A stretch of DNA of 64,000 bases from a virus, in IMG/VR virus record IMGVR_UViG_3300048837_000984, positions 1 through 64,000 of that record. One strand, given 5' to 3'. Below, piece after piece: positions 21,823 through 64,000 of this stretch. Each line of letters starts with the position of its first letter. The stretch's first letter is position 1. A program made the translations under genes and the position numbers. A model generated the notes under the pieces. The model saw only the letters and a list, made by a program, of their open reading frames with translations. It did no database searches and was not told the DNA's origin.

Positions 21823-22749
21823 TTACACGAAGTCGGCTCGTGCAACGGCCGAGAAGTTACCGATGGCACCGCCGAGAGACTCGTAAGCGAACCACTCGAT
21901 CATGAAGGCTTCGCGCTTCAGATACATGGTGGTGTCTTCGAGCAGGTAGAACTTACCCAGGAACTTCGGATCAGCGAACATGAAGATGCTGTCGTCAGCA
22001 ACCAGGTCCCGCTTGATCGTGATGATCCAGCGAGCGTTCATGAACTCGCGTTCGGCCCAGCCGTTCTTGACCAGGTCCTGGGAGAAATCGCCACCCATCT
22101 CATCACGACCCCATTTCTGGATTTCGCGAATGGTGACGTTGTTAACGAGGACGGTGTCGACCTCAAGACGGCCGGTTGACTTCGGCATGATCTTGAAGGC
22201 ATCGACGATCGTGTTGCGGGTGATGCCACCAGAGATGGAAGCCCACTGAACGACGCCGGTGGCAGTGACCGCGGTGTCAACGGCGTTCAACATGGTGTTG
22301 ACCGCGTTGATGAAGCCGCTGTCCTCTTCAGCCAGCATGTCCTTGATGGCATTGTCCGACATAACCTGCCGGATATCCATCACCCAGGTTCGCAGCGTAT
22401 CCACGTCCTTCGAAAACCGCCGAGTCATGATGCGGTTGAAGAGAACGCGATAACGCGGACCAAGGATGTACAGTCCCTCTGGCATCGAAGCAAATGGCAC
22501 CGAAGCAGCGGCTGGGCTACCAGGTTCCATATCGACAACCTTGACAGGCAGGTCTGTGTCTACCTGACGATCGAGATCGTCATTCGAAATCTGCAGCGGT
22601 GGCAGAATCCGACGGTAGAAGCCGTCTTCACGCATTCTTGCCCGCGTGAAGTCATTGACGGCGTCGATCGCCTGTTTTTCCATACCTGGAGTAGCCAGCT
22701 GGTCGTACAGCGTTTCGTTAACCAGTCTGGACTCGGCTCGAGTGGCCAT
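21823..22749 (-). CDS. Major capsid protein (HK97-fold)
   Basis: 308 aa from ATG 22749 (GGAGG SD). Follows protease, scaffold and decoration genes; N-terminal MEKQAIDA putative cleavage motif. Confidence 0.7.
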   Translation of the reverse strand: MATRAESRLVNETLYDQLATPGMEKQAIDAVNDFTRARMREDGFYRRILPPLQISNDDLDRQVDTDLPVKVVDMEPGSPAAASVPFASMPEGLYILGPRYRVLFNRIMTRRFSKDVDTLRTWVMDIRQVMSDNAIKDMLAEEDSGFINAVNTMLNAVDTAVTATGVVQWASISGGITRNTIVDAFKIMPKSTGRLEVDTVLVNNVTIREIQKWGRDEMGGDFSQDLVKNGWAEREFMNARWIITIKRDLVADDSIFMFADPKFLGKFYLLEDTTMYLKREAFMIEWFAYESLGGAIGNFSAVARADFV

Positions 22750-22808
22750 TCGCACGCACCTCCGTGTGCCTTTTTCGACCGGTTTCCGTCACCGGTCGAT
22801 AGTTGGGG

Positions 22809-52275: not shown

Positions 52276-54389
52276 TCGGACTCCTGTTCGAGACGCCAGC
52301 GTCGCTCCTCTTCCAGTTCTTTCTTCTGGCGATTATTCCACCAGCTACGCAGAGCCATTGCTGCCGCAGCGGCACCGCCGACGCCCAGAGCACCGAGACC
52401 CCACTGAGTTGGACCCCATTTGGTTACGTCGAACATAGAAGGCGCGTTCTCTTCGGCTTTTTGCTTGGCCCTTATTTCTAGCGATCGTTTGCGCTCGGCG
52501 GTCTCTTCTATCCGCGATCTATCGTTGAGTGCCTCCTGATGCTCTCTGTCCGCCCTGTCAACTTCTTGTTTAGCCAGCCTCGCCGCTTCCTGGGCGTCTG
52601 CCGCCCGCTGGGCGTCTACTTCGCGTTGGTCCCGGAAAGCCTGTTCAAACGGCCACACAGCGCTTGTCCAAGGCTCGTCCTTTGGCGGAGCTACATCTGG
52701 CCTGTACTTGTGCCACTCCGACTCCAGGGGCGGTTCTCGAAAAGTTGGTTTTGGTGCAAACGTGTTGAGATCCTCTTGGGGAATATTTTCGAATCTCAAG
52801 AAGCCATAACGGTTGGGTGGGTTAGGCAGTTCGGCTGCCCTTCCCCGCAATTTGTACCGCCCAGCCCAATCAATCTCGTAAAGCTTCGTAAATGCGTGTG
52901 GTAGATAGAGCTTCTGTAGGCCCTTGGCCAGCGGCAGCGAAGCCACCGACTTTATCGGACTGCCGTACGTTTTTTCTACCTCGGCCAGGAATCCCGGCTG
53001 CTCGCTCGATGAGTCGCCAACAACGCTCTTGACTGCGTCCAGCAGGGGTTGCTGGTTTTCTTTCCGTTTATTGCGTAAGAACGTCTCAAGTTCTTCTTGT
53101 TTCTCGTTAACATCTCTAGTCCGGTAGTCCCGCTTGTCGACGTAACGATGGCTGCTGAAAGGAATATAAGGGTTCTTCGCCCACTGGCCGAGTGGCGTTA
53201 AATTTCTAGCCCACTGACGCAGGTTTAGAAGGTTCTGCCGCACTTGTTTCGAGTGAGTCAGTCTGGTCTCAAAATCTATCTTTCCCGACAGTCGTTCCAT
53301 GAGGCTTGGCGGCAGGTCTAGCGGGGAGTCCGGCCAATACGAAGCGGAGCCGCCGCCCTGGGCGAAGTGATACTTATCCAGCTCGGGCTCCGCTTCCGCC
53401 TCGGCGGTTGGAATGCGTGGCTTACTTGGCGGTTTTCTTGACCAGAAAAAGGCCTGCTTTTCCTCTTGCTCCACTTCCTTATACATCTTTCTGAGTTGTG
53501 CCTCTGTTCTTGGTCCAGCCGGCACGGGGGTTATTTGAGCCTCCTTCTTCCGAAGAGAGACAGAGTCGGGCAGCTTCTTCTTCGGAATGTGGATCCGGAA
53601 CCTGGTCGGCCTGTGCGTAAGGCCAACCTCGCGACCTTCCTGAGAGTCGATATCGAACTCTTCCAGCTTCATTCTCAAGAGCTTCTGCAAAAGAGAATGC
53701 TTCTCTCCATAGTTGCCCCGGTCCGATTCCTTCTTGGCTCGAATGAGATCGTCAAGAACAGAGCCCTGTTTCGGCACCCTGAGTACTCCTTGTACAGGCG
53801 TGACCGCCGGATCATAAGCAGGTGTAGTTGTGTCAACAGCTCGCGTGGCGTCTCGTTGCATAGCCTTGGGGAAGTTTTTGGCGATCTCCTGTGGCACAGG
53901 TAGCTTCGCCCCAGGTGACTTCATGCGCAGAAAATAAGTGCTCCCGTCGCCATAGGTGGGCAGCGGCTCTGGCTTTGGTCCCAGGCCCAGCCGGTGAAGG
54001 ATGTGACGAAGCGGTTGCTTGGCCATATCTGTCGCGGCACTTAAAGAATAAGTCGGCCTGGCCTCAATACTCGGCTGCTTGATGAACTTCTGTAAAGACT
54101 TCCACCCGGCGGGGGTGTAGTTCATGGGGAGATCGGTACCAGTCCAACCGCCGGGCAACCGCTTCAGGATCTCGCCAGTAAACTTGTTGTTCAGGTTTAG
54201 TTTCTGAAGAGACGGGTGGATATAGCGGTAGGAAAATGAGGGCGTGCCGCTAGGTCCCCCTGGCTTCAGGTTGGCGTATCCGACCAGCTTGTCCTTCATG
54301 AACAGGCCAAAGCCGTTGCCACCTTGCATTGGGCGGACACTGAACCGCTGACGGAAACTGATGGCGTCCTTGTCCATAGCTTCACTCAC
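52272..54389 (-). CDS. Modular K-x-A-linked protein with N-terminal GNAT-like module and C-terminal TM anchor
   Basis: LVGYA..YIHPSLQKLNLNNKF (GNAT motif-A-like); borders DKDA, KQGS, KEAQ, EKQAF; C-terminal GLGALGVGGAAAAAMAL. Confidence 0.5.
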   Translation of the reverse strand: MSEAMDKDAISFRQRFSVRPMQGGNGFGLFMKDKLVGYANLKPGGPSGTPSFSYRYIHPSLQKLNLNNKFTGEILKRLPGGWTGTDLPMNYTPAGWKSLQKFIKQPSIEARPTYSLSAATDMAKQPLRHILHRLGLGPKPEPLPTYGDGSTYFLRMKSPGAKLPVPQEIAKNFPKAMQRDATRAVDTTTPAYDPAVTPVQGVLRVPKQGSVLDDLIRAKKESDRGNYGEKHSLLQKLLRMKLEEFDIDSQEGREVGLTHRPTRFRIHIPKKKLPDSVSLRKKEAQITPVPAGPRTEAQLRKMYKEVEQEEKQAFFWSRKPPSKPRIPTAEAEAEPELDKYHFAQGGGSASYWPDSPLDLPPSLMERLSGKIDFETRLTHSKQVRQNLLNLRQWARNLTPLGQWAKNPYIPFSSHRYVDKRDYRTRDVNEKQEELETFLRNKRKENQQPLLDAVKSVVGDSSSEQPGFLAEVEKTYGSPIKSVASLPLAKGLQKLYLPHAFTKLYEIDWAGRYKLRGRAAELPNPPNRYGFLRFENIPQEDLNTFAPKPTFREPPLESEWHKYRPDVAPPKDEPWTSAVWPFEQAFRDQREVDAQRAADAQEAARLAKQEVDRADREHQEALNDRSRIEETAERKRSLEIRAKQKAEENAPSMFDVTKWGPTQWGLGALGVGGAAAAAMALRSWWNNRQKKELEEERRWRLEQESD

Positions 54390-57300
54390 TTGGTTGGCGG
54401 CGTTGGCTGAAACTCGTTAACTCGTTTTTGTCTAGCCTGTCCGATCTCGTTCGCGTGCGGTTGCAGCGACGGCGGCAACTTCAACTGGTTGACAGGCCCA
54501 GCACCAAGCTGATCCATCGGGACGGCGCCAAAGCCCTGAGCAGCCAGCGACGTAAACGGCGTGCTCGGCTGCGCTTCCTGGAGCGTGTCCGAGATACGCT
54601 GGATCCAGTCCGTCTGGCCAGCGTGTGCCATCTGACCCTGTAGTCGGCCCTCAAAGTCAGCATCCGAGGTTGCCGCATCACCGGCCCTGAGGATATCCGG
54701 CCGGTGGGCAGAGAGCAAACCGATGGTGTTCCTGTACGGCTTAAACCGCGGGTCCGACTGGATCGTCTGGTCCAGATTCGTCAGCGAAGTGTGCGCTAGC
54801 TCGCTCAGACCGTTCGGCCCGAGCTGTCGAGCGACGTCTGGGTGAGCCTGCGCCAATTGTGCAGCCAGATTCTGGACAAGGTCCTTCCTGGATCCCGTCA
54901 GAGCGTCGTGCGGCAGTGAAGTCAGCATCTTCGACATGGACTGGATAAGGGGAGCGATTACCTGAGCCTGTTGTGGACCGACGATGCCCGCCGCAGACAG
55001 TGTGGGAATCATGCCCTGACCCAGGTAGTTCTGCATCACCGGCATAACCTCGACTTCGCGCTGTGAATTCCGCACGATATCGGTCAGGCCGTTCTTGTAG
55101 ACGTACTCCTGGTTAACCTGCTGCGATCGGAACTGGTTCCAGGCCGCTCCCGGAGATACGCCCGACTGCTGCAAAAGCGCAACCCACTGTTGCGCGTTTA
55201 CCGTACCCAGGGAAGTTCCGTCTGGCATCACTGGTTTGCCAGCCCGGATGTTGTCCGCGATCTGGGCTGCCGGAGTACCGGGCCGAATGAGGCCGGCGTC
55301 TTCCAAGGCCAATGTTGCACCCATGATGTTGGCCATGGGACTGTTCGACGCAGAAGTTCTCAGTCTCTGGTCGAGGTCGACCGCATCGTCCATCGTTAAG
55401 CCGTTGAAGCCTTGTCGTCCGGCAAACTGTCCGAAAGCACGACCAAAAGCCGCGGCGCCCGGAGCCGTTCTGGACGCAAAGAGCCTCGGCAGTCCCGCTG
55501 ACTGGGCCACGTCTCCCCCATGTCCAATCAGCGAGAACAGCCTCGGCAGCCCACCAGGGGTGGATTTGGCCAGGTTGTGCAGCTGCCGAACCTGCTGCGA
55601 CACCTGCTGCGGATCCAGATTGGACAGCTGCCCCTGGGTCAACTTCTCCAGGATGTCCATCCCTTCCCCGGCAGAGAAGGCCAGCTTGATCGGACCTTTA
55701 CCTTTGCGCAGACAAGTGCGGCAGAACAACCAACCCTTCTTGTCCTTGTAAATGTGTTCCTTCTTCAGGGCCTTGTCGCAGTGCGGGCAAATGTGATGCT
55801 CGTTGCCTTCATCGTCACAGCCCATCTCCGCTTGGGTGTGAACAGCACCCTGTTTGGGCATGTGTTCAGCCATCATATCCCTCGCAGCCGCAAATGGTTG
55901 CGACAACGAAGACAGCCGGTCTGCGGTCTGCTCTGGCGACATGGGTGTCTGGGAAGACAACAGACCTCGATCACTGGCGTTGGAATAGATGTCGCTCATC
56001 TGCGAAGCAGAAAACCCGGAAGTGTCCGCACGGTTGGCGTTTGGTCCGTACAGCCTGGAGAAGATTCTCTTGGCAGTACTCGTAGCGTCATCTGCGGATA
56101 TCCCTCGCTGACCGGTGATTGGATCTCGGAGCGTCTTGGCTGTACGGAAGACCTGGCTGCCAAGGCTCGCCGCGGACCCACGCCAGCCGTGCAGGCGGTC
56201 CCACAGCTGCGGCGCGAACATCCGAATGTATGGAGCGATGGTCGAGATGTCACCGGAGGCTGAATCAATAGCCCGCTGCATCTCTGGGTTCTTGTCCGGA
56301 TTGGAACCGGCTAACCGAGCCAGACCAGATAGCATGCGCCGATACGTACCTCGGTCTTCTGACATGGCTCCGGTGGTAGCCTGCCAGTCGCCAGTGTAGG
56401 TACGCATGTTGCTCAGGCGATCCGAAACGTTACCGGCGCCTGGGGCATACAGGAGGCCGTGTTGAGCTGCCCAGTTGTTGATGAATGGGTTGACAATCAT
56501 CTGCTGCAGGACAGGCAGGAAGCTGCCGAACTGATCGACCATGGCAGCCTTTTCCAGCGAGTCTTTCGTCCCGAATGGCGGCGCCCCAGAAGTACTCTCT
56601 CCGAAGTAGGGCTTGTCCTTATAGGTGAAGTAGAAGCTGTCACCAAGAGTCTTGGGCAGGTCGTGGTAGTTAACCGTAACTTCGTCACCAGCCTGGATGG
56701 CTTTCTTGGCTATCAAGGCGACCGTGTCGTCCGGGTTCTTGCGGATGTCTGCGTTTGGCTCATCGGAATGGTTACAGTAACGGGCTTCGTCCGTTTCGTC
56801 GTAGCAGTCTAGATGGAACTGACCTTCCTTGGGAACCAGGCAGACCGGAACAATGACGTCGTCTGGACTAAATTTTTTAGTCGCAAAGATGCCCTTGCCG
56901 TCTATCTCAGATGGTTTGATCTCGACTCCTGGGCCTTCGTCCGAAGCCTTCTTGGTATCGTTGGCCTGGAGGACGCCCTTGCGTCGGACGGCGATCGTAA
57001 TGTGGAAGTCGAACTTGTTGTTGTTTGGTCTGGCCGACAAGCCGTAGCTCTTGCGCAACTTCTCCAGTTCCGGCGAAGTCACCTCAATGAACCAGCACTT
57101 ACTGATGTTTTCCCAACCGGAAGGGTTGGTGGACCGGACCGGCCCAGTAGTGTAGCGGAACGTGTGGCCCCGCTCGGAAATCTTGGACGGACCACCAATG
57201 GCCTCAACTTCGTCCGGGCGCATGACCGTAATGTGTGCGTTGAAGGCGCCGCCATTGTAGCCGGGAGGTAGTTCAATACCGGGGACGTGTAGTGCGTCAA

Positions 57301-57559
57301 AAGCACCGCGAGCAACGGCGTTGGGGACGCTGAGAAGGCACCAACCGTCTGCGGACATGTAAAGCCGCCCGGCCATGTCGTAGCTCAGGTCGGCCGCTAC
57401 TTTCTTGTGCGCTGGCTTAACGGTAAGCTTCGCCTCGCTCGCCTTATACAGTGGATCCCAATGAATTACGAACGGCTCTTCTTGGCGAGAAACCGGCGTG
57501 TCGACGGCGATGCCGTCCAGGATGCTCTGAGACCGGTTGTTTTCAGCCATCTTTCCCAT
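54386..57559 (-). CDS. Modular protein: 2H-phosphoesterase, SET domain, tape-measure-like helical region with a Zn-finger insert
   Basis: AHITV and FHITI (two HxT motifs); GKGIFATK..RYCNHS.EPN..A.K.I..GDEVTVNY (SET); CPHC..CRTC. Confidence 0.7.
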   Translation of the reverse strand: MGKMAENNRSQSILDGIAVDTPVSRQEEPFVIHWDPLYKASEAKLTVKPAHKKVAADLSYDMAGRLYMSADGWCLLSVPNAVARGAFDALHVPGIELPPGYNGGAFNAHITVMRPDEVEAIGGPSKISERGHTFRYTTGPVRSTNPSGWENISKCWFIEVTSPELEKLRKSYGLSARPNNNKFDFHITIAVRRKGVLQANDTKKASDEGPGVEIKPSEIDGKGIFATKKFSPDDVIVPVCLVPKEGQFHLDCYDETDEARYCNHSDEPNADIRKNPDDTVALIAKKAIQAGDEVTVNYHDLPKTLGDSFYFTYKDKPYFGESTSGAPPFGTKDSLEKAAMVDQFGSFLPVLQQMIVNPFINNWAAQHGLLYAPGAGNVSDRLSNMRTYTGDWQATTGAMSEDRGTYRRMLSGLARLAGSNPDKNPEMQRAIDSASGDISTIAPYIRMFAPQLWDRLHGWRGSAASLGSQVFRTAKTLRDPITGQRGISADDATSTAKRIFSRLYGPNANRADTSGFSASQMSDIYSNASDRGLLSSQTPMSPEQTADRLSSLSQPFAAARDMMAEHMPKQGAVHTQAEMGCDDEGNEHHICPHCDKALKKEHIYKDKKGWLFCRTCLRKGKGPIKLAFSAGEGMDILEKLTQGQLSNLDPQQVSQQVRQLHNLAKSTPGGLPRLFSLIGHGGDVAQSAGLPRLFASRTAPGAAAFGRAFGQFAGRQGFNGLTMDDAVDLDQRLRTSASNSPMANIMGATLALEDAGLIRPGTPAAQIADNIRAGKPVMPDGTSLGTVNAQQWVALLQQSGVSPGAAWNQFRSQQVNQEYVYKNGLTDIVRNSQREVEVMPVMQNYLGQGMIPTLSAAGIVGPQQAQVIAPLIQSMSKMLTSLPHDALTGSRKDLVQNLAAQLAQAHPDVARQLGPNGLSELAHTSLTNLDQTIQSDPRFKPYRNTIGLLSAHRPDILRAGDAATSDADFEGRLQGQMAHAGQTDWIQRISDTLQEAQPSTPFTSLAAQGFGAVPMDQLGAGPVNQLKLPPSLQPHANEIGQARQKRVNEFQPTPPTK

Positions 57560-57750: not shown

Positions 57751-57783
57751 GATAGCTAAAAAAGAGACCCGGTTAGGGGTCTC
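57751..57783 (-). terminator. Intrinsic terminator followed by AGCTATC
   Basis: GAGACCC..GGGTCTC stem, T tract, then AGCTATC, just after the 57790 stop. Confidence 0.8.
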
Positions 57784-57789
57784 AGATTG

Positions 57790-58533
57790 TTACTGCAGTG
57801 GCCCGCCGGACGGTCCCAGCAGGGGCTTAGCCGGCAGGCCGTCCGGCGGTGGCCCGGATGGCGGCGGAAGCCTCTTCAGCTTCCGGTCCAGCTCAAACTG
57901 AGCCAGAACCAGATCGACCACATCTGTGGTCACCGCCCGGACGACCTCCTCGGAGCGCAGGGCCGTAGTGAGGTCCTGCGCTGCCAGCTCTCTCTCACTT
58001 TCGTCAAGCGCCGAAAAGCGCTTGACGCGCTCGCGAACCGTTGCAGGGTAATCCTGCAACTTTCCGAGGGCGACGATCTTCTTGACCATCGCCTTCTCGG
58101 CGTCCTGCCGAGCCAGCCCCGTCAGTAGTTCCTCTGTCTTGCTGATCTCGAAAGACCAGCTCGACAGATTTCTAACAGTCAGGTTGTCAAACTGCCCCGG
58201 AACCTCGGGAATTTCGAGCTTCTGCCGGCGAGCCTCTAGCTCTTTGGCGAAAGCCTTCCGACCGGCGGCGTCGAGCCGCGCCACACGCTCGACATGCGGC
58301 CGGATCTCGGTCGGGCTGAATTCCTGTAGTAGCCCCTCAGCGGCGAGATCCGATGTAACCTCGTCGATAAGATCATCCGACGACGTTATTGTCGCGGCAA
58401 TCGAAGCCACGTGATGTTCGACCGTCAACGACGGTCGAATTACGATCTGGGTGCCCACGTACTGGGTACCCAGCCAGAAGCCACCAAACACCGCGACGGT
58501 GGCCACTGTCAGAATCTTTAAAAAAGTACTCAT
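57790..58533 (-). CDS. Membrane-anchored hypothetical protein
   Basis: MSTFLKILTVATVAVFGGFWLG N-terminal TM; GGGAG SD; leader nearly identical to that of 19640-20266. Confidence 0.7.
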   Translation of the reverse strand: MSTFLKILTVATVAVFGGFWLGTQYVGTQIVIRPSLTVEHHVASIAATITSSDDLIDEVTSDLAAEGLLQEFSPTEIRPHVERVARLDAAGRKAFAKELEARRQKLEIPEVPGQFDNLTVRNLSSWSFEISKTEELLTGLARQDAEKAMVKKIVALGKLQDYPATVRERVKRFSALDESERELAAQDLTTALRSEEVVRAVTTDVVDLVLAQFELDRKLKRLPPPSGPPPDGLPAKPLLGPSGGPLQ

Positions 58534-58566: not shown

Positions 58567-58606
58567 GATCTCACCCTCTATTGACCCGGAAATGACCTTA
58601 ATTTAG
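58567..58606 (-). promoter_or_regulatory. Tripartite phage promoter-like motif
   Basis: CTAAATT-N16-CAATAGA-N3-TGAGATC. Confidence 0.65.
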
Positions 58607-58809
58607 GGCGGAAAGTTGGCCCAGAAGTGACTGCACCGCAAATGCGCTGAAGACCAAAGACACAGCCGAGCGCTCTCTCGATATCGCCGCCACATACCTC
58701 GGACAGAGGTGGTGGCGCCAAAGCGACGATTCAACCAAGCCCGGTGCAGATAGTAATACTCGGTGTCGACGCCGTTGGTAGGCCAACGTCTTACAATCGC
58801 GGCCGGCAT
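58603..58809 (-). CDS. A-x-L mini-protein family member (68 aa, detached copy)
   Basis: MPAAI..RAWL..SARL..SAHL; GAGGA SD. Confidence 0.55.
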   Translation of the reverse strand: MPAAIVRRWPTNGVDTEYYYLHRAWLNRRFGATTSVRGMWRRYRESARLCLWSSAHLRCSHFWANFPP

Positions 58810-59166
58810 TCATTTATCCTCAACGAAACCGAACTTGGACATAAACAGCCGCAATTCCGGAGACAGGTCGCAAATCAGGTCTAGTAGCGCGAAAGGAGGC
58901 AGTATCCGCTCGGCCTTCTGTTGGGCAGATAGCTGCGGATCGCCAGCAACGGCTAACTCGGCAAGGACTAGCTTGCCAACCTCAGAGTCGTAAGGATATC
59001 GCCAGACAAAGCAATCACCGCTCTGCGTTGGCTGGAAGTCTACAACGATGTGGTTGGTCGCTTTCTCGTCTTGGACAAATAAATAGGTCGCGTCTACGTG
59101 AGAAGTAGACAGTCTTGCTGGGGCGATACTCCGCCACCGCTGTAAATGCTTAGACTGGATCGGCAC
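58810..59166 (-). CDS. Hypothetical protein
   Basis: GTG start with GGAGG SD, 118 aa. Confidence 0.6.
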   Translation of the reverse strand: MPIQSKHLQRWRSIAPARLSTSHVDATYLFVQDEKATNHIVVDFQPTQSGDCFVWRYPYDSEVGKLVLAELAVAGDPQLSAQQKAERILPPFALLDLICDLSPELRLFMSKFGFVEDK

Positions 59167-59210
59167 CAGAATCCTCCGAGAACTTGGGGCCAGACTTTTC
59201 TGTTCTCACT

Positions 59211-59537
59211 TCAAGTCCGCCACTGGTATTTCTTCTGCAGTTCCTCGGCCTTGTCAGGGTCAGCGATTGTTGCTCTGCGGGCCTGCAACTCTTCGACCGT
59301 CCCACCCAACTGCTCCCAGATAAAGTTGAGGCAGCAGATGACAGCGTCGCTGGTGAGGCTACAGAAGACACAGTCATCAATCAAGCCGAGAAGCGGATCC
59401 TTGACTTCGTCGTTAGCTTTACCAAGAAACTCTCTGAGACGATCCTTTACCTGGGGGTCAACTTCCCGGTCGTTCCCACCGCAGATCAGATTGAACAGTT
59501 GGTCACGAGATTCAATGGAGAAAACCTCATCGCTCAT
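59211..59537 (-). CDS. Hypothetical acidic protein
   Basis: 108 aa, ATGA overlap with the upstream ORF. Confidence 0.65.
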   Translation of the reverse strand: MSDEVFSIESRDQLFNLICGGNDREVDPQVKDRLREFLGKANDEVKDPLLGLIDDCVFCSLTSDAVICCLNFIWEQLGGTVEELQARRATIADPDKAEELQKKYQWRT

Positions 59538-59767
59538 CTGTAGTACCTCTGAAGTAACCTGGAGCCACGAGGACGACCAGCAAGGATAGGCCCCTGGCAG
59601 AAAAGGTAGCCATGTCGAAGCCAGGCATGCGAGTTTCCCATTTGTCTTGCCCGGTTAAGATAGGCCGCGAGGCCCGCAGAATACCGTCTATAGACAAAAA
59701 CAGAACCGTTGCGGAGTAAGTGTCGATAATGTCCTACGCCATGAAGAAGTGCAGCTACGCACAGCAT
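59534..59767 (-). CDS. A-x-L mini-protein (77 aa)
   Basis: MLCVAAL..AGL.AYL..AWL; GAGG SD. Confidence 0.6.
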   Translation of the reverse strand: MLCVAALLHGVGHYRHLLRNGSVFVYRRYSAGLAAYLNRARQMGNSHAWLRHGYLFCQGPILAGRPRGSRLLQRYYR

Positions 59768-59771
59768 TGAA

Positions 59772-59990
59772 TCAACCTCGCTGATGTAGGTGAGACCGAC
59801 TACGCCAGAGTAGCCGTGCTTCTTGCCCGATAAGCTGGTGCGGCGACCGGATCTTGCAGCTCGACAGACGGGAAAGAGTAGCGCGCCGATGCCACGGCCA
59901 TGCGCCACCTCCAGAAGCTAGACAGGCAGCAGCCAGGCAGAAAACAAATGCTGTTGGCTCACCGTGATAAAGGTTTGCGGCATAGCTCAA
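59772..59990 (-). CDS. A-x-L mini-protein (72 aa)
   Basis: TTG start in TTGA overlap; MSYAANL..ACL..ATL..ARL. Confidence 0.6.
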   Translation of the reverse strand: MSYAANLYHGEPTAFVFCLAAACLASGGGAWPWHRRATLSRLSSCKIRSPHQLIGQEARLLWRSRSHLHQRG

Positions 59991-60241
59991 TCTTCTTTCC
60001 TTCCTGGTGAAAGCCAGGCCTGAGAAAGGCCTTGGTGCGTGGCGACACGATTGTACCCATGACCTTGGCGGAGTCCACTATCCGAAGCAATGAACCGCAA
60101 ACCCGAAAACAGTCGCAAGTTAGCTGCGCATTGCAGCACCTGAATTCCGTAGACCTCACGCGGTAAGACTGTGTTGGCATGCCAGCGCGACCAGCCGTAC
60201 CTAAAGTTGGTATAACTTGTAAGTGCCGCTCGACAGTTCAA
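59987..60241 (-). CDS. A-x-L mini-protein (84 aa)
   Basis: AAGGAG-N6-TTG, TTGA overlap; MNCRAAL..ANL..AWLSPG. Confidence 0.65.
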   Translation of the reverse strand: MNCRAALTSYTNFRYGWSRWHANTVLPREVYGIQVLQCAANLRLFSGLRFIASDSGLRQGHGYNRVATHQGLSQAWLSPGRKED

Positions 60242-60477
60242 TTCCATCTCCTTTGACAAAGCTTCGCGCAGTCACACGACATGGCCGCGGACGCATACAC
60301 TGAGGACCTTTTGCCAGTCCGAAGCCAGCAACACTGGTCGTAAGTCTTGTCGCACGCAGGCGTGAAAAAGGCCTGCGATAGCCAGCCCCACCACGAACGG
60401 GACGGCAGTAGGCGGGCTGACGTAGACTTGAAATATACTTCGGATTGATGTCGACACAGGGACGCCCGACTGAGCAT
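60238..60477 (-). CDS. A-x-L mini-protein (79 aa)
   Basis: GGGAG SD, TAATG overlap; MLSRASL..ARL..AKL. Confidence 0.65.
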   Translation of the reverse strand: MLSRASLCRHQSEVYFKSTSARLLPSRSWWGWLSQAFFTPACDKTYDQCCWLRTGKRSSVYASAAMSCDCAKLCQRRWN

Positions 60478-60686
60478 TATCTTTCTCCCGGACTAAGACC
60501 AGCTCGCCCGGTAGGACCGAAAGCCTGACTAAAGGCGTTCGCGTCTTCGCCCGCTCCGAGCCACCCGTAGGGGTAAAAGTTGCCGACCATCGCTCTGATA
60601 AGGAAATAAGGAAGACCATTCCGAATTGTCGCGAAAGAGAACCAGTTGTAGCCGGGACAGTGGTGCAATATCGCACTCCAGCTCAT
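60477..60686 (-). CDS. A-x-L mini-protein (69 aa)
   Basis: GGGAG SD, ATGA overlap; MSWSAIL..ATI..AGLSPG. Confidence 0.65.
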   Translation of the reverse strand: MSWSAILHHCPGYNWFSFATIRNGLPYFLIRAMVGNFYPYGWLGAGEDANAFSQAFGPTGRAGLSPGER

Positions 60687-60943
60687 GCGTATCTCCCTGG
60701 TGAAAGTAAAGCCCGGCGACTTTGCATGTAGGCACCGGCCATAGGTATTGCAAGTTTACCGCGCATGCGGAGCCGACTACCTGAAATGGAAAACCGTACG
60801 TACGGGTGCTGAAGAATAACGGCTTCCTGTGGAAACCACGAAGTGGACTTAGTGACGTAGACCTTGGCCGTCGCTAGATCTAGACGAATTCGCCCAGGTT
60901 CCCTCGGACAATGCCATAAGGCCGCTGTGCTCCTTGGCCTCAT
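60683..60943 (-). CDS. A-x-L mini-protein (86 aa)
   Basis: GGAGGA SD, ATGA overlap; MRPRSTAAL..AVI..ALLSPG. Confidence 0.65.
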   Translation of the reverse strand: MRPRSTAALWHCPREPGRIRLDLATAKVYVTKSTSWFPQEAVILQHPYVRFSISGSRLRMRGKLAIPMAGAYMQSRRALLSPGRYA

Positions 60944-61191
60944 CTTTTCCTCCCGGGTCGGAGAAGAGCTCGTGAAGTGCGAAACATGGCCGCGCCCGAT
61001 GACGAATCTCCCGACCACAGCCAGGGTAGCTGGCCGACTCGGATACCTGTCGGTTCGTAACACAAGTAAGCCTGGAAACATTCGACATCAAAGAAGAGAT
61101 CGATTGGTCCGGTCATTACAGCTGCATAACCGCAACCAAAATACCAGTTATCGGCATCTCTCGACATTCGCAACGTAGCTGAGGAATACAA
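60940..61191 (-). CDS. A-x-L mini-protein (83 aa)
   Basis: GGAGGT-N5-TTG; MYSSATL..AYL..AAM..ALLRPG. Confidence 0.65.
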   Translation of the reverse strand: MYSSATLRMSRDADNWYFGCGYAAVMTGPIDLFFDVECFQAYLCYEPTGIRVGQLPWLWSGDSSSGAAMFRTSRALLRPGRKR

Positions 61192-61192
61192 C

Positions 61193-61411
61193 TTACACCT
61201 CCCACCGTTGCTGACTCAGTGCGGCTTGACATTTCCCGAGGCGGAAAGCACCCGCCCACGCCGTTGGACCTTGGCCTAGAAGACTTCGGCAGAACCGGTG
61301 AAGAACGGCACCTGGTTGCCAACGGAACCGGGTGCTAGGAATCATTGCCGCGAATCTGACGTGATAGACGTATAGGCTGTAACAGTAGCGGATAGCTGCT
61401 CGACATCTCAT
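61193..61411 (-). CDS. A-x-L mini-protein (72 aa)
   Basis: MRCRAAI..AAM..AVL..AAL; weak SD (AGGA). Confidence 0.6.
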   Translation of the reverse strand: MRCRAAIRYCYSLYVYHVRFAAMIPSTRFRWQPGAVLHRFCRSLLGQGPTAWAGAFRLGKCQAALSQQRWEV

Positions 61412-61416
61412 TTCGT

Positions 61417-61635
61417 TCAGTCCTGACCAAGATAGGCGCTGATGTTCCAACCGAGCCAGGCACGGTTGGGTACGCGGCTGAAATACTCAGCGCCACCAAA
61501 CAAGATTGCATCAGACAGGCCTTGAAGCGACGGACGAGCTCGCGGTGGATGTCTACCCTGGCGCAGACTCGCACGAAACCGCGAGCAATAGTAAGAGCGA
61601 CCTGAATGAACTCTCAAGAAAGCACGGTCATTCAC
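61417..61635 (-). CDS. A-x-L mini-protein (72 aa)
   Basis: GGAGGT SD, GTGA overlap; MNDRAFL..ASL..AIL..AWL..AYL. Confidence 0.65.
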   Translation of the reverse strand: MNDRAFLRVHSGRSYYCSRFRASLRQGRHPPRARPSLQGLSDAILFGGAEYFSRVPNRAWLGWNISAYLGQD

Positions 61636-61874
61636 GCAAACCACCTCCAAGGACCCAGGGTCGCATCGCTTCGCCCACAAAGACTTGCCACCAAAAAGAT
61701 CGAAACGACTCGGCCAGGATCTTTTGCGTGTAGCAAGCGAGCACCGCCAAATGACCCAGCCGTACAGGCTCTGGCGAATAGCGCCAAGCGACCGGACCCG
61801 GCGATGGTCGCATTGTAGGTACAAAGGTGCCATGCCGTGCGGTTCCGACAACAGAGAATAGCTCTACACGGCAT
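61632..61874 (-). CDS. A-x-L mini-protein (80 aa)
   Basis: GGGAG SD; MPCRAIL..ATI..ARL..ASL..ATL. Confidence 0.65.
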   Translation of the reverse strand: MPCRAILCCRNRTAWHLCTYNATIAGSGRLALFARACTAGSFGGARLLHAKDPGRVVSIFLVASLCGRSDATLGPWRWFA

Positions 61875-61875
61875 A

Positions 61876-62100
61876 TCACGGTCTCCCAGCTGAAAGCCAA
61901 GCACCACTAACCAGGCTCAGGTAGGCTTGAGGTTCATCCCAGTCGACATGCGGAAGCCCGGCCCGGCTGTTCTCTGCCCAACCCAACCAGGCCCGGCAGC
62001 ACCAGAGTTGGCCAGTCGTAAACCCCAGTACAGCCGTATACCGAGTGTGACCGTTCCGTGAGGTAGTTGTAGGGTAGTGGATCTTTGCGTCGCACGACAA
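61876..62100 (-). CDS. A-x-L mini-protein (74 aa)
   Basis: GGAGGAG SD with TTG; MSCDAKI..AVL..AWL..AGL..AYL..AWL. Confidence 0.65.
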   Translation of the reverse strand: MSCDAKIHYPTTTSRNGHTRYTAVLGFTTGQLWCCRAWLGWAENSRAGLPHVDWDEPQAYLSLVSGAWLSAGRP

Positions 62101-62101
62101 G

Positions 62102-62347
62102 CTAGTACTCCTCCTCGTGTTGGAACAGACCGGGCTTAAGGACCGCTCGGTCAAGTGTAGAAAGTGGCGCAGAGTCGTAACCATGCCCGCCGTGGGTGGC
62201 ACTGGCGGTGAGATGCCCGTTGAGTCGGGCTGGTATCCCCCATTGCCATCTCCAGGTAGGACCAGACGCAGGTTCAGTCAGGCAGGCCCACGAGAACGGA
62301 TAGTACGTCCCGAAGAGGGAACCAGATAGACTCGCTTTACAGTACAT
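62102..62347 (-). CDS. A-x-L mini-protein (81 aa)
   Basis: MYCKASL..ACL..ARL..APL..AVL; 11-nt overlap with the upstream member. Confidence 0.6.
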   Translation of the reverse strand: MYCKASLSGSLFGTYYPFSWACLTEPASGPTWRWQWGIPARLNGHLTASATHGGHGYDSAPLSTLDRAVLKPGLFQHEEEY

Positions 62348-62588
62348 CTGAGTCTTCGTCTCCTGGCGGGAACTGGTGAAGACAGGCACCGAGCCTGGCG
62401 TCTAGAGAAGCGCCCGTATTCTGAAAGTCCGTAGGAAAGAGGATAGCCCCTCTGTCAGCAAAGTACCTGGCCGCAAGTGATGCCGAGGTGCCGCAGAACC
62501 CGCAACCGCACGTGTTCATCGCCGCTCGGTCACGGGTCTGTGGGTAGTCATCAAGACTGCGAAATGTTATACCAGCTGTGCTGTTCAT
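62337..62588 (-). CDS. A-x-L mini-protein (83 aa)
   Basis: GAGG SD, ATGA overlap; MNSTAGI..ASL..AIL..ASL..ACL. Confidence 0.65.
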   Translation of the reverse strand: MNSTAGITFRSLDDYPQTRDRAAMNTCGCGFCGTSASLAARYFADRGAILFPTDFQNTGASLDARLGACLHQFPPGDEDSDVL

Positions 62589-62800
62589 TGGTGCCTCAGA
62601 ATAGCGCCATACCTGCCTGAAAGGTACGGCCGATCAGTGATTGCGAGCGAAGCAGAACAGGAAAGCCCGCGGACTCGACCGAAGGTTAACCACGCTTGAC
62701 AACCCCAGTACAAGCCTCGTACAAGACCAAGCACTGCGGTGAACCGAGTACGGTAGTAACAGCGTGCTCGTTGGTAGTTAAGCGAAGCTCGGTTGTTCAT
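62585..62800 (-). CDS. A-x-L mini-protein (71 aa)
   Basis: GAGGT SD; MNNRASL..AVL..AWL..ASL..AILRHQ. Confidence 0.65.
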   Translation of the reverse strand: MNNRASLNYQRARCYYRTRFTAVLGLVRGLYWGCQAWLTFGRVRGLSCSASLAITDRPYLSGRYGAILRHQ

Positions 62801-62810
62801 CTTCAATACC

Positions 62811-63014
62811 TCATTGATGTCGAAGGATAGCCCAACAATTGTACAATGCAACCGCACCGGAATAGCGGGCTAGAATCGCATTCGCTTTATCGCGTAGAAC
62901 CGCCTGGTGATGGTAACTCGCCGGACGGCTGCCCACCATCAAATAGGCGCTTACAGCTGAGACGTATATACTTGTTTGCGGAAAAAAGACAAAAAGGTTT
63001 GCTCGGCTTCCCAT
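62811..63014 (-). CDS. A-x-L mini-protein (67 aa)
   Basis: MGSRANL..AYL..AVL..AIL..AILRHQ; weak SD. Confidence 0.6.
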   Translation of the reverse strand: MGSRANLFVFFPQTSIYVSAVSAYLMVGSRPASYHHQAVLRDKANAILARYSGAVALYNCWAILRHQ

Positions 63015-63017
63015 TGG

Positions 63018-63233
63018 TCACCAGTGGTAGAGGATAGCTCCGACATCGCAAGAACCCAGACGCGCATTTTTGTTGTATCGGTACTGATATCCAAGAAGGT
63101 ACCCGCCACACCTGTCACTAAGAAACGGAGTGACGCCGTATCTGTCTCCAGCCGAGTACGTCAGACAAGCCCAGGAAAACGCATAGAATGGGTTGTAGAA
63201 TCGATAACAAGTCAGACCTGCTCGGCAACTCAT
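63018..63233 (-). CDS. A-x-L mini-protein (71 aa)
   Basis: GGAG SD, ATGA overlap; MSCRAGL..ACL..ARL..AIL. Confidence 0.65.
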   Translation of the reverse strand: MSCRAGLTCYRFYNPFYAFSWACLTYSAGDRYGVTPFLSDRCGGYLLGYQYRYNKNARLGSCDVGAILYHW

Positions 63234-63460
63234 TCGCCATCTCCGTGCCTGAGAAAAGTTCGGTGTAACCGAAACAGAGCCGCGCCACCGCAGCAAGAAC
63301 CAGCATAGGCACCGGAACGCTTGTGCGTAGTATTCGGTCTAAGACCGGCTCGGGTCCCACAACAACCGCAGTTACAACTCGCACTGAGAGCCGCTCGTCT
63401 TCGAAACCGTTCGGCGCCGTTGCGGGCCGTGACAACCAGCGTCGCGGAACAGCTAATCAT
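63230..63460 (-). CDS. A-x-L mini-protein (76 aa)
   Basis: AGGAG SD; MISCSATL..AAL..AGL..AAL. Confidence 0.65.
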   Translation of the reverse strand: MISCSATLVVTARNGAERFRRRAALSASCNCGCCGTRAGLRPNTTHKRSGAYAGSCCGGAALFRLHRTFLRHGDGE

Positions 63461-63471
63461 CGTTTCTCCTG

Positions 63472-63693
63472 TCAGACGTTCGAGAAAGGCCCACCAGGTA
63501 TTTGCCACCGGAACGGACCGGTCTTGAGTGTACATCGACAATGCTGGTCAAGGACTGCGTTGGCATATCTGCGGTAGTGTGCGAACGCTCGCCTGTCAAG
63601 GATACACAGCGCTGACCCATCGAGATAGGCCTTGGCGGGAAACCCGAAGAAAACTGGGTTACGTGGACTGGTTATGATAGCCGCTGTAAACAA
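63472..63693 (-). CDS. A-x-L mini-protein (73 aa)
   Basis: AGGAG-N7-TTG; MFTAAI..AYL..AVL. Confidence 0.6.
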   Translation of the reverse strand: MFTAAIITSPRNPVFFGFPAKAYLDGSALCILDRRAFAHYRRYANAVLDQHCRCTLKTGPFRWQIPGGPFSNV

Positions 63694-63703
63694 GAAGCGT
63701 CTC

Positions 63704-63907
63704 CTAGTGTTCAAGGTCTGCAACCGACCGGTTGCGAATTAACGCAGCGGAACTTTGTGAATAGTAATTGCCTGGATACAGAGCACACCGGTTGCTCCAC
63801 CCAAGGACCGCAGAAGCCAACTTCCGGTCAAGAAAAGCTCGAGCACTCACCCGTAAACGAAAGATACGCCAAGTGATTAAAACGTTTCCATGGATAGCGC
63901 GAAACAC
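63704..63907 (-). CDS. A-x-L mini-protein (67 aa)
   Basis: AAGGAG-N6-GTG; MFRAI..AFL..AVL..AAL..ADL. Confidence 0.6.
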   Translation of the reverse strand: MFRAIHGNVLITWRIFRLRVSARAFLDRKLASAVLGWSNRCALYPGNYYSQSSAALIRNRSVADLEH

Positions 63908-63929
63908 AGGTATCTCCTTTATCACGATC

Positions 63930-63998
63930 TCAAAACCACGGGAAAAGCTCAGCGCCTTCGAGTAGGACGTCTAGCGACCATATCTCTGCGTGACACAG
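63930..63998 (-). CDS. A-x-L mini-protein, C-terminal fragment (runs off the window)
   Basis: ..LCHAEIWSLDVLLEGAELFPWF*. Confidence 0.45.
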   Translation of the reverse strand: MCHAEIWSLDVLLEGAELFPWF

Positions 63999-64000
63999 CC

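What the first reader, a model, noticed from the sequence alone, without database searches (positions are those of the whole stretch)
58603..64000. Array of at least 20 hypervariable mini-proteins built on a repeated A-x-L scaffold
Seen: 59534-63907 has no long ORF but is tiled without gaps by 19 minus-strand ORFs of 67-86 aa. A 20th runs off the window, and a detached copy lies at 58603-58809. Most have a Shine-Dalgarno motif at 5-8 nt. Eight junctions are NTGA start/stop overlaps, one is TAATG and the rest are gaps or overlaps of about 22 nt or less, which argues these are real coupled genes. Nearly all begin M-x(1-5)-A-x-[LI], often with Cys at residue 3 (MNCRAAL, MYCKASL, MSCRAGL, MRCRAAI, MPCRAIL, MSCDAKI). 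Each contains about 4-6 small-x-hydrophobic motifs (AAL, AWL, ARL, ACL, AVL, AYL, AIL) separated by 5-20 aa loops rich in Tyr/Trp/Arg/Cys/Gly with almost no shared sequence. Local paralogy is visible: FSWACLT in two copies, AILRHQ* in two, TAVLG..W.C.AWL in two, LSPG near three C-termini. Inference: conserved short beta-strand anchors plus variable aromatic loops suggest a diversified binder repertoire (host-range, anti-defence or decoy inhibitors), interchangeable rungs of a hetero-oligomeric beta-solenoid, or multi-core peptide precursors cut at A-x-L. I do not recognise the family.
Basis: partly seen in the sequence, partly recalled or inferred. Interest (0 to 1): 0.93.

Follow-up and report, generated by a model that had tools for sequence, protein, structure and literature searches.

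The report
Phage operon of A-x-L mini-proteins
A 194-kb uncultured phage spends about 13 kb on some 55 back-to-back genes for tiny, strongly basic proteins that share almost nothing except four or five Ala-x-Leu anchors. The genes are real, the family matches nothing described, and its function is unknown, but gene arrays of this general kind are already known from large phages.

Summary
The window is the first 64 kb of a complete 193.7-kb phage genome. The array runs on the minus strand from 59.5 to about 72.4 kb and holds about 55 genes, 19 plus one cut gene in the window.

I first took the ORFs for chance products of an A-poor strand, because period-3 signal, codon bias, repeats, RNA families and fold signal were all absent. 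Later tests reversed that reading:
- Shine-Dalgarno plus ATG sites number 36, against 5.6 expected.
- Those starts open frames of median 62 aa, against 32 aa for other ATGs.
- ORFs tile 100% of the stretch, against 56% in simulations.
- The motif GC-N4-CT (209 seen, 75 expected) lies in codon phase 0 (138/24/33).
- Synonymous TTR Leu codons and Ile codons are also enriched in frame.
- Paralogue pairs show pN well below a saturated pS.

So these are old, selected protein genes. The motif [C/S]-[R/G]-A-aromatic-L has a minimum spacing of 8 residues. It mirrors the strand of a widespread, unnamed 8-residue beta-solenoid repeat, but homology is not supported.

No homologues were found among 1.84 billion proteins, and no such array in 40 related phages. 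One relative carries a different mini-gene array. The scan has met similar arrays on other phage DNA.

The parts
63930..64000 (-). 3' part of family member 20 (full gene 63930-64154 of the genome, 74 aa); runs off the window
   Evidence: GGAGG SD, ATG, starts MKGAIL, 8 A-x-[LI] motifs
63704..63907 (-). mini-gene, 67 aa (GTG start)
   Evidence: AGGAG SD 6 nt upstream; 4-5 A-x-L
63472..63693 (-). mini-gene, 73 aa (TTG start)
   Evidence: AGGAG SD; 4 A-x-[LI]
63230..63460 (-). mini-gene, 76 aa
   Evidence: AGGAG SD; the same ends are called independently in the public protein collection
63018..63233 (-). mini-gene, 71 aa (starts MSCRAGL); 4-nt overlap with the upstream gene
   Evidence: paralogue of 62102-62347, dN/dS about 0.16
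62811..63014 (-). mini-gene, 67 aa; no strong SD
   Evidence: 5 A-x-L; shares the C-terminal AILRHQ with 62585-62800, encoded with 5 of 18 nt different
62585..62800 (-). mini-gene, 71 aa; first sequence of alignment A1 and the one folded
62337..62588 (-). mini-gene, 83 aa
   Evidence: Exact gene call in the public collection (P0253); also on contigs from two other samples
62102..62347 (-). mini-gene, 81 aa (starts MYCKASL)
61876..62100 (-). mini-gene, 74 aa (TTG start)
   Evidence: AGGAGG SD; best paralogue pair with 62585-62800, E 4e-7
61632..61874 (-). mini-gene, 80 aa (starts MPCRAIL)
   Evidence: GGAG SD; 5 A-x-[LI]; the competing frame 61628-61879 has only 1-2
61417..61635 (-). mini-gene, 72 aa (GTG start)
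   Evidence: GGAGG SD; 4-nt overlap
61193..61411 (-). mini-gene, 72 aa (starts MRCRAAI)
60940..61191 (-). mini-gene, 83 aa (TTG start)
   Evidence: GGAGG SD
60683..60943 (-). mini-gene, 86 aa
60477..60686 (-). mini-gene, 69 aa
60238..60477 (-). mini-gene, 79 aa
59987..60241 (-). mini-gene, 84 aa (TTG start; NCRAAL near the N-terminus)
   Evidence: AGGAG SD
59772..59990 (-). mini-gene, 72 aa (TTG start)
59534..59767 (-). last mini-gene of the main array, 77 aa
59211..59537 (-). Co-transcribed 108-aa gene, not a family member. It looks acidic by eye (charge not computed) and overlaps the last mini-gene by 4 nt.
   Evidence: no Pfam, NCBIfam or PHROG match
58810..59166 (-). Co-transcribed 118-aa gene of unknown function
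58603..58809 (-). Detached putative family member, 68 aa, 4 A-x-L. A competing 71-aa ORF lies in another frame (58598-58813).
57790..58533 (-). 247-aa gene with a hydrophobic N-terminus (judged by eye); last gene before the terminator
57764..57783 (-). Intrinsic-terminator-like hairpin (7-bp stem, 5 GC pairs, then T6); likely end of the transcription unit
   Evidence: Its counterpart upstream of the array lies at genome 72711-72683.

Best explanation
Window 59534-64000 is the promoter-distal third of an operon of about 15 kb on the minus strand. The array itself spans genome 72.4 to 59.5 kb, and two intrinsic-terminator-like hairpins bracket the whole unit.

The operon holds about 55 translationally coupled genes. 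Each encodes a soluble protein of about 67 aa that is strongly basic (median net charge +7), rich in Arg and aromatic residues, and contains Cys.

All belong to one old, tandemly expanded paralogous family. It has diverged until only 4-5 copies per protein of the motif [C/S]-[R/G]-Ala-[W/Y/I/V/F]-Leu remain. The first copy lies directly after the start codon and the last lies just before the tail that encodes the next gene's ribosome-binding site.

Shown: the genes carry the hallmarks of translated genes, and Ala and Leu are selected at the protein level.

Inferred: each A-x-L is a short beta-strand whose Ala and Leu pack into a small hydrophobic core, as in 8-residue-repeat beta-solenoids. 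The stretches between strands are loops of nearly free sequence.

Guessed: the phage makes a co-expressed cocktail of about 55 different small basic binding proteins. They would act on host or nucleic-acid targets during infection (host takeover or counter-defence).
For: Coding:
- SD plus ATG occurs 36 times against 5.6 +/- 2.7 expected, on the minus strand only.
- SD-preceded ATGs open frames of median 62 aa, against 32 aa for other ATGs (p = 7e-6). 30 of 42 are followed at once by A-x-[LI], against 26 of 135.
- ORF tiling is 100% against 56 +/- 11%.
- Stop trinucleotides are depleted on one strand only: TAG o/e 0.52, while its complement CTA is 1.13.
- GC-N4-CT occurs 209 times against 75 expected (z = 15.5) and lies in codon phase 138/24/33. 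TTR Leu codons lie 40/16/10 and Ile codons 25/4/4, but Val and Phe are not enriched.
- Paralogue pairs keep about 50% amino-acid identity with pS 0.82-0.89 against pN 0.35-0.42.
- 6 of 10 of my gene models exist with identical ends as independent gene calls.
- Contigs from two other samples are identical.

Architecture:
- Alignment consensus with five anchors.
- Minimum spacing of 8 residues and a 4-residue lattice, p = 2e-7.

Beta-strand reading:
- Residue preferences around the motif.
- The family profile retrieves proteins with tandem NS[SR]AxL[WR][EG] 8-mers.
- Their model (pLDDT 90-96 in the repeat region) places one [S/R]-A-x-L strand every 8 residues.

Operon: terminators at 72711-72683 and 57783-57764.
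Against: - No period-3 signal, and flat codon-position composition: 2.7 per kb against 23 in true small genes and 1.8-3.1 in simulated ORFs.
- The protein-language-model recognition score is low.
- The monomer model is poor: pLDDT 55, pTM 0.28.
- Profile-profile comparison with the 8-mer repeat proteins shows no homology (probability 8.8%), so the structural analogy rests only on the motif and its period.
- No expression data could be obtained.
- The function has no direct evidence at all.
- The basic, aromatic composition is also what an A-poor sequence would give on random translation.
Confidence: 0.6

Rival explanations
1. The stretch is non-coding. The small ORFs would be chance products of an A-poor, stop-depleted strand.
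For: No period-3 signal and no codon bias. Minus strand has 19.5% A. Low recognition score by the language model.
Against: SD, start codon, ORF length and N-terminal motif all coincide. The motif is in frame, with synonymous Leu codons also enriched. Tiling exceeds all 300 first-order simulations of the window stretch, and the whole region's 90% tiling is well above the second-order mean of 71 +/- 3%. pN is well below pS. No tRNA, Rfam family, repeat or RNA-fold signal is present.
Confidence: 0.05
2. The mini-proteins are basic nucleic-acid-binding proteins. They could be packaged with the DNA or injected like T4 internal proteins, or coat phage or host DNA or RNA. The N-terminal M-x(2-4)-A-x-L would then act as a targeting tag.
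For: Median net charge +7, with 92% of members positive, Arg- and aromatic-rich and without a membrane segment. The operon abuts the virion-protein module: a 1057-aa SET/2H-phosphoesterase protein, then the virion RNA polymerase. The motif sits at a fixed N-terminal position. Iyer et al. 2021 proposed a DNA-binding or transcription-factor role for the ~35 zinc-ribbon copies of phage G.
Against: Charge neutralisation does not need 55 different sequences or internal anchors. The clade's candidate prohead-protease motif is K-x-A (first-reader notes), and these proteins are Lys-poor (1.6%). No virion data exist.
Confidence: 0.15
3. The mini-proteins are rungs of one hetero-oligomeric cross-beta or beta-solenoid assembly. 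A-x-L strands from different proteins would stack on each other.
For: The anchors match the strand of an 8-residue solenoid repeat. The monomer does not fold confidently on its own. Translational coupling would give near-equal amounts of each protein.
Against: No direct evidence. Spacings between anchors are irregular (8-25 residues). High positive charge on every subunit would oppose stacking.
Confidence: 0.1
4. The ORFs are multi-core peptide precursors (RiPP-like or protease-released peptides) cut at A-x-L.
For: The motif recurs 4-5 times per ORF, including near both ends. Each protein has 1-3 Cys.
Against: No conserved leader. No radical-SAM enzyme in the genome, and no recognisable modifying enzyme or protease among the seven neighbouring genes scanned. 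A site at residue 3-6 would release a useless tripeptide to hexapeptide.
Confidence: 0.04
5. The array is an actively diversified library, produced by a DGR or another targeted hypermutation process.
For: Extreme divergence between members (mean column identity 11%). The coding strand is A-poor.
Against: No reverse transcriptase. No template or variable repeats. Synonymous sites are saturated while proteins are conserved. There are 0 differences in 7.6 kb between contigs from three samples.
Confidence: 0.02

Closest known systems
Tandem arrays of small paralogous genes in jumbo phages. [quoted passage not shown] 2017, PMC5646251). Phage G has about 35 copies of a zinc ribbon (Iyer et al. 2021, PMC7824862).
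   Same: Dozens of adjacent, same-strand small genes of one family in a phage of about 200 kb, taking several percent of the genome. Function is unknown, and tandem duplication is the likely origin.
   Different: Members here are almost unrecognisably diverged (11% mean column identity) rather than 'very similar'. They contain no known domain and are held together only by a three-residue motif on an 8/4-residue lattice. Their composition erases period-3 signal.
Unnamed 8-residue repeat NS[S/R]-A-x-L-[W/R]-[E/G] in phage and prophage proteins, many of them with a C-terminal DUF7666 (PF24703) domain, e.g. P0012 and P0008
   Same: The same core ([S]-[R/S]-A-x-L) and the same 8-residue minimum period. 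In the confident model A-x-L is the strand of each rung. The family's HMM retrieves these proteins (E 2.5e-4 and 7e-4 against 1.84 billion proteins).
   Different: Those are single proteins of 250-400 aa with 15-20 perfect tandem units and extra domains. The mini-proteins have 4-5 irregularly spaced anchors, no DUF7666, and no profile-profile similarity (hhalign probability 8.8%). Their own model is of low confidence.
Mini-gene array of the related phage G004 (IMG/VR record behind L010; G004:115.6-132.6 kb)
   Same: Same phage clade (major capsid protein 70% identical). About 60 coupled genes of 64-95 aa on one strand. C-terminal tails carry the next gene's SD. Hydrophobic residues recur every 4 residues.
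   Different: An unrelated, Gln-rich family ([V/I]-x-Q-Q repeats) with only background A-x-L (0.7-1.2 per protein). It sits at a different genomic location, and no flanking genes are shared.
Pentapeptide-repeat proteins (A-[D/N]-L-x-x; e.g. MfpA, Qnr)
   Same: Ala at i-2 and Leu at i face the solenoid core. This is the same small-x-large inward pattern (from established knowledge of the fold).
   Different: Their period is 5, not 8 or more. They are acidic DNA mimics. No Pfam match was found even at E <= 1.

Membership tests
Tandem small-paralogue arrays of jumbo phages (Hua 2017; Iyer 2021) | 30 or more adjacent, co-oriented small genes in a large phage genome | tested here: met
   About 55 genes in 12.9 kb of a 193.7-kb DTR genome
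Tandem small-paralogue arrays of jumbo phages (Hua 2017; Iyer 2021) | Members are paralogues of one family | tested here: met
   Shared five-anchor consensus. The profile recovers its own members at E down to 5e-9 against 1.84e9 proteins. Pairwise E-values reach 4e-7.
Tandem small-paralogue arrays of jumbo phages (Hua 2017; Iyer 2021) | Members 'very similar' (recent duplication) | tested here: not met
   Mean column identity 11%. Synonymous sites are saturated.
8-residue S-x-A-x-L beta-solenoid repeat proteins (DUF7666-associated) | Core motif S-[S/R]-A-x-L with an 8-residue period | tested here: inconclusive
   Motif preferences and the 8-residue minimum spacing match. However, spacing is irregular (8-25 residues) and the units are not tandem.
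8-residue S-x-A-x-L beta-solenoid repeat proteins (DUF7666-associated) | Detectable homology (profile-profile) | tested here: not met
   hhalign probability 8.8%
8-residue S-x-A-x-L beta-solenoid repeat proteins (DUF7666-associated) | DUF7666 domain, or a confident solenoid model | tested here: not met
   No Pfam hit at E <= 1. Mini-protein model pLDDT 55, against 86 for P0012.
Pentapeptide repeat (PF00805) | 5-residue period A-[D/N]-L-x-x in tandem | tested here: not met
   No Pfam match. Almost no spacings below 8 residues.
DGR variable proteins | Reverse transcriptase plus template/variable repeat pair | tested here: not met
   No RVT_1 in the genome, with controls positive. No repeats.
RiPP precursor arrays | Conserved leader and a nearby modifying enzyme | tested here: not met
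   No leader beyond M-x(2-4)-A-x-L. No radical SAM. Neighbours are unannotated. Other enzyme classes were not searched.
T4-type internal proteins | Basic small proteins with an N-terminal capsid-targeting peptide, present in virions | not testable with these tools
   Basic charge and the fixed N-terminal motif are compatible. Virion content is unknown.

The most novel reading that the evidence does not exclude
The array is a natural minimal-scaffold library. A three-residue beta-strand code (A-x-L on an 8/4-residue lattice) would be enough to hold together about 55 otherwise almost free sequences. That would give the phage a co-expressed panel of small basic binders against many host targets. 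Large uncultured phages would then repeatedly evolve such panels from unrelated scaffolds. In this clade the evidence for that is this family and the Q-rich family of G004; other families seen elsewhere in the scan lie in phages whose clade was not checked.
Probability: 0.2. Interest if true: 0.75.

Novelty: new variant of a known kind. Interest (0 to 1): 0.6.

Why it matters
About 7% of a complete phage genome encodes a protein family that no library recognises. Its sequences look random by standard coding statistics, yet several independent tests show selection at the protein level.

- It is a useful stress case for gene finding. Period-3 and codon-bias measures fail here, while SD signals, coupling and motif phase succeed.
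- It adds a very diverged example to the still unexplained habit of large phages to build arrays of tiny paralogues. Within one clade such arrays are sporadic and built from unrelated families.
- The motif-level link to a widespread, unnamed 8-residue beta-solenoid repeat gives a concrete structural hypothesis to test.

Tried and rejected
(a) Non-coding RNA:
- ARAGORN found no tRNA in the window.
- Rfam gave nothing at gathering thresholds and only noise at E <= 5.
- Local fold z-scores were about 0 on both strands. A first attempt timed out.

(b) DNA repeats or CRISPR-like arrays: none.

(c) Stop-codon reassignment: no single reassignment opens a long frame.

(d) Quadruplet or other exotic decoding, suggested by a mod-4 bias in motif distances and a tRNA with an 8-nt anticodon loop. 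The bias is a 4-residue protein lattice plus pairs that span the 4-nt gene overlaps.

(e) My early verdict of 'chance ORFs' was overturned.

(f) Searches for relatives:
- blastn and tblastn against the phage collection found nothing.
- Three single-protein scans of viral contigs found nothing.
- The two homologues of the flanking 1057-aa protein lie on contigs without an array.
- The family profile in six frames on 5 relatives gave one marginal hit.
- The motif-pair pattern on 40 relatives showed no excess.
- Closest relative G001 is cut just where the array would lie.

(g) Pfam and PHROGs on ten members, and the ESM Atlas: nothing.

(h) complex prediction with four copies of one member returned 'no answer'. 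This is neither support nor evidence against.

(j) I guessed a wrong PMC id once; that paper is irrelevant.

(k) My idea from memory that the upstream zinc-finger genes are TIGR02996-type found no NCBIfam support.

(l) My assumption that gene callers miss nearly all members was wrong. 6 of 10 are called with identical ends.

Full report
CONTEXT. The window is the first 64 kb of G000, a complete 193,694-bp virus record with direct terminal repeats. Almost all long genes lie on the minus strand. The major capsid protein (21823-22755; weak match to PHROG 2522 major head protein) has 1660 homologues at up to 78% identity. More than 80 related IMG/VR contigs reach 150-235 kb. So this is one member of a large clade of uncultured phages of about 200 kb.

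FIRST PASS, AND A WRONG TURN. The region has no long ORF on either strand. The 'desert' spans genome 58603-64736 and 65473-70054 and coincides with an inverted AT skew: the minus strand has only 19.5% A.
- No tRNA, Rfam family, DNA repeat or tandem repeat is present.
- No stop reassignment opens a frame.
- Period-3 power is at noise level (1.0-1.1, against 3-7 in coding DNA), and no frame shows the phage's codon usage.
- Codon-position composition inside the best ORF path is as flat as in simulated ORFs: 2.7 per kb, against 1.8-3.1 in simulations and 23 in true small genes.
- Local RNA folding is no better than in shuffles.

At that point I judged the ORFs to be chance products of an A-poor strand.

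THE REVERSAL. Several independent tests contradict that reading.
1. ORFs of 60 aa or more cover 100% of 59534-63907, against 56 +/- 11% (maximum 78%) in 300 Markov simulations. Over the whole region, tiling is 90% against 57% (first-order) and 71% (second-order).
2. Stop trinucleotides are depleted on the minus strand only: TAG o/e 0.52 while CTA is 1.13, and all stops together number 291 against 401 expected. Depletion of TAG and TAA matches that in the phage's true small-gene region; TGA is less depleted.
3. An unbiased scan of gapped dinucleotide pairs gives one outstanding signal. GC-N4-CT occurs 209 times against 75 expected (z = 15.5). The looser A-x-L pattern GC-N4-(CTN|TTR) runs at 24 per kb against 6-8 per kb elsewhere in the genome, on the minus strand only.
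4. Shine-Dalgarno plus start sites are strongly enriched on that strand. The 4-mer version occurs 75 times against 30 +/- 5. The 5-mer plus ATG version occurs 36 times against 5.6 +/- 2.7, with 2 on the plus strand.
5. ATGs preceded by an SD open frames of median 62 aa (83% reach 50 aa). Other ATGs on the same strand give 32 aa (33%) (p = 7e-6). 30 of 42 SD-ATGs are followed at once by A-x-[LI], against 26 of 135.
6. Within SD-defined frames the motif lies in codon phase 0 (138, against 24 and 33). The synonymous Leu family TTR (40/16/10) and Ile (25/4/4) are enriched in frame too, but Val and Phe are not. The third base of the Ala codon is free. Selection therefore acts on the peptide Ala-x-Leu/Ile, not on a DNA word.
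7. The closest paralogue pairs keep 47-51% amino-acid identity while synonymous sites are saturated (pS 0.82-0.89 against pN 0.35-0.42). One pair gives dN/dS of about 0.16. A shared C-terminal hexapeptide is encoded with 5 of 18 bases different.
8. Six of ten of my gene models exist with identical ends as independent gene calls in the public collection.
9. Contigs from two other samples are 100% identical over 5.8 and 1.7 kb. This rules out an assembly artefact and argues against ongoing hypermutation.

The flat codon statistics are explained by an odd amino-acid usage: A 11.8, R 11.4, L 11.1, F+Y+W 13.7 and C 3.6%, but D+E+K only 5.7%.

ANATOMY. A chain of 50 SD-anchored ORFs (median 67 aa), or 55 in a motif-based census, fills 59.5-72.4 kb. 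19 of them, plus one cut at the edge, lie in the window.
- A detached candidate lies at 58603-58809. At least three more members lie at 102.8-103.9 kb.
- The 182-aa frame at 64734-65282, which interrupts the desert, is overlapped by two good family members and is probably spurious.
- The refined motif is [C/S]-[R/G]-A-[W/Y/I/V/F]-L-x-[Q/H/F]-G. The first Ala is at residue 3-6 in 38 of 49 proteins. The last motif usually lies 1-7 residues before the stop. Most proteins have 3-5 motifs.
- The alignment consensus has five anchors.
- Spacing has a sharp minimum of 8 residues and prefers 4k or 4k+1 residues (p = 2e-7). This also explains the mod-4 and mod-12 periodicity I saw in the DNA. The odd '8 mod 12' class is made of pairs that span gene junctions, chiefly the 4-nt overlaps.
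- The proteins are basic (median net charge +7, 92% positive) and have no membrane-like segment.
- Terminator-like hairpins at 72711-72683 and 57783-57764 bracket the array together with three downstream genes of 108, 118 and 247 aa, none with a family match.

WHAT IT RESEMBLES. Ten members have no Pfam or PHROG match even at E <= 1, and the ESM Atlas offers nothing.

A profile of 46 members was searched against 1.84 billion representative proteins. It finds only the phage's own members, plus proteins made of tandem 8-residue units NS[S/R]-A-x-L-[W/R]-[E/G] (P0008, P0012; E 2.5e-4 and 7e-4).
- That repeat is widespread, with at least 268 hits on phage-sized contigs. Many carry a C-terminal DUF7666, but the repeat itself has no Pfam or NCBIfam model, and I found no paper on it.
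- Folded with homologues, P0012 gives a confident model (pLDDT 86 overall, 90-96 in the repeats). It has one four-residue strand every eight residues, and that strand is exactly [S/R]-A-x-L.
- Its weak PDB matches are nearly all beta-solenoids.

This supports reading the mini-proteins' anchors as beta-strands with Ala and Leu on one face. But profile-profile comparison gives no homology (8.8%), and the mini-protein's own model is poor: pLDDT 55, with only a tentative hairpin formed by two anchor segments. So the family works like that repeat in motif and period. It is not shown to be a member.

COMPARATIVE PICTURE.
- None of 40 related genomes (25 of them at least 90% complete) has the strand-specific motif-pair excess. 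G000 scores 31 against 4.
- The profile finds nothing convincing in the five relatives with the strongest capsid-protein matches.
- Complete relative G004 has its own array of about 60 coupled mini-genes. They belong to an unrelated Gln-rich family ([V/I]-x-Q-Q period) at a non-syntenic place.
- Complete relatives G012 and G038 have no array.
- G001 is truncated at the relevant point.

Arrays are thus sporadic and lineage-specific within the clade. Published precedents are the tandem arrays of more than 30 similar genes in phages G and 121Q (PMC5646251) and the ~35 zinc ribbons of phage G (PMC7824862). Earlier reports of this scan describe further mini-protein arrays, with other motifs, in other large uncultured phages.

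MECHANISM AND FUNCTION.
- Shown: these are real genes under purifying selection on the anchors, organised as a coupled operon, with no diversifying machinery found. No reverse transcriptase or radical-SAM enzyme is encoded.
- Inferred: a small beta-strand-anchored scaffold with free loops.
- Guessed: a co-expressed panel of small basic binders for host takeover, counter-defence or nucleic-acid binding.

Rivals are scored in their own section. The self-association job gave no verdict.

VERDICT. This is a new, extremely diverged family within a known kind of phage feature. Interest is moderate to high because of its size, its invisibility to standard coding statistics and its testable structural code.

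Noticed in passing
genome 101511-101585 (minus strand; outside the window, G000:C1): ARAGORN reports a 75-nt tRNA with an 8-nt anticodon loop (CUCAUAAA; 'anticodon' cata, Met|Tyr ambiguous). A normal tRNA-Met(CAU) lies at 107457-107528. An expanded loop is typical of +1 frameshift-suppressor tRNAs. I found no link to the array.
   Followed up: partly
genome 102775-103862 (minus strand; outside the window): A second small cluster of at least three A-x-L family members (68-78 aa, 5-6 motifs each) lies in another ORF-poor patch next to the odd tRNA.
   Followed up: partly
G004:C1:115605-132582 (loci L100-L101), minus strand: A related complete phage (capsid protein 70% identical) carries about 60 coupled mini-genes of a different, Gln-rich family with [V/I]-x-Q-Q four-residue periodicity. 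Their LTVEDKL-type tails encode the next SD. A 297-aa protein that looks like a pentapeptide-repeat protein by eye (not scanned) sits inside the array at 127699-128592.
   Followed up: partly
P0012, P0008 and at least 268 relatives (public protein collection): A widespread tandem 8-residue repeat NS[S/R]AxL[W/R][E/G] occurs in phage and prophage proteins, often followed by DUF7666. The model is a confident beta-solenoid (pLDDT 90-96). The repeat itself has no Pfam or NCBIfam model, and no paper mentions DUF7666.
   Followed up: partly
window 54386-57559 (minus strand): A 1057-aa protein combines a 2H phosphoesterase domain (PF22547, E 9e-12) with a SET methyltransferase domain (PF00856, E 2e-10). 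It lies at the edge of the virion-gene block. Only two homologues (48% identity) exist among 5.8 billion protein clusters.
   Followed up: partly
L002:8732-9805 (genome 72732-73805, minus strand) and the terminator at genome 72711-72683: The 357-aa gene just upstream of the array has CxxCxGxG zinc fingers. Those fingers hit 'anti-termination protein Q-like' PHROGs (phrog_6060 at 2e-7, phrog_127 at 3e-6). A 13-bp-stem terminator follows, and then the array. This layout recalls lambda Q and its terminator tR', but the matches cover only the zinc-finger parts.
   Followed up: no
genome 64734-65282 (L001:6736-7284), minus strand: The only 'long' frame inside the desert (182 aa) is overlapped in other frames by two good family members (65092-65274 and 64913-65092). 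It is probably a spurious read-through frame, yet JGI's gene caller calls it on contig L126.
   Followed up: partly
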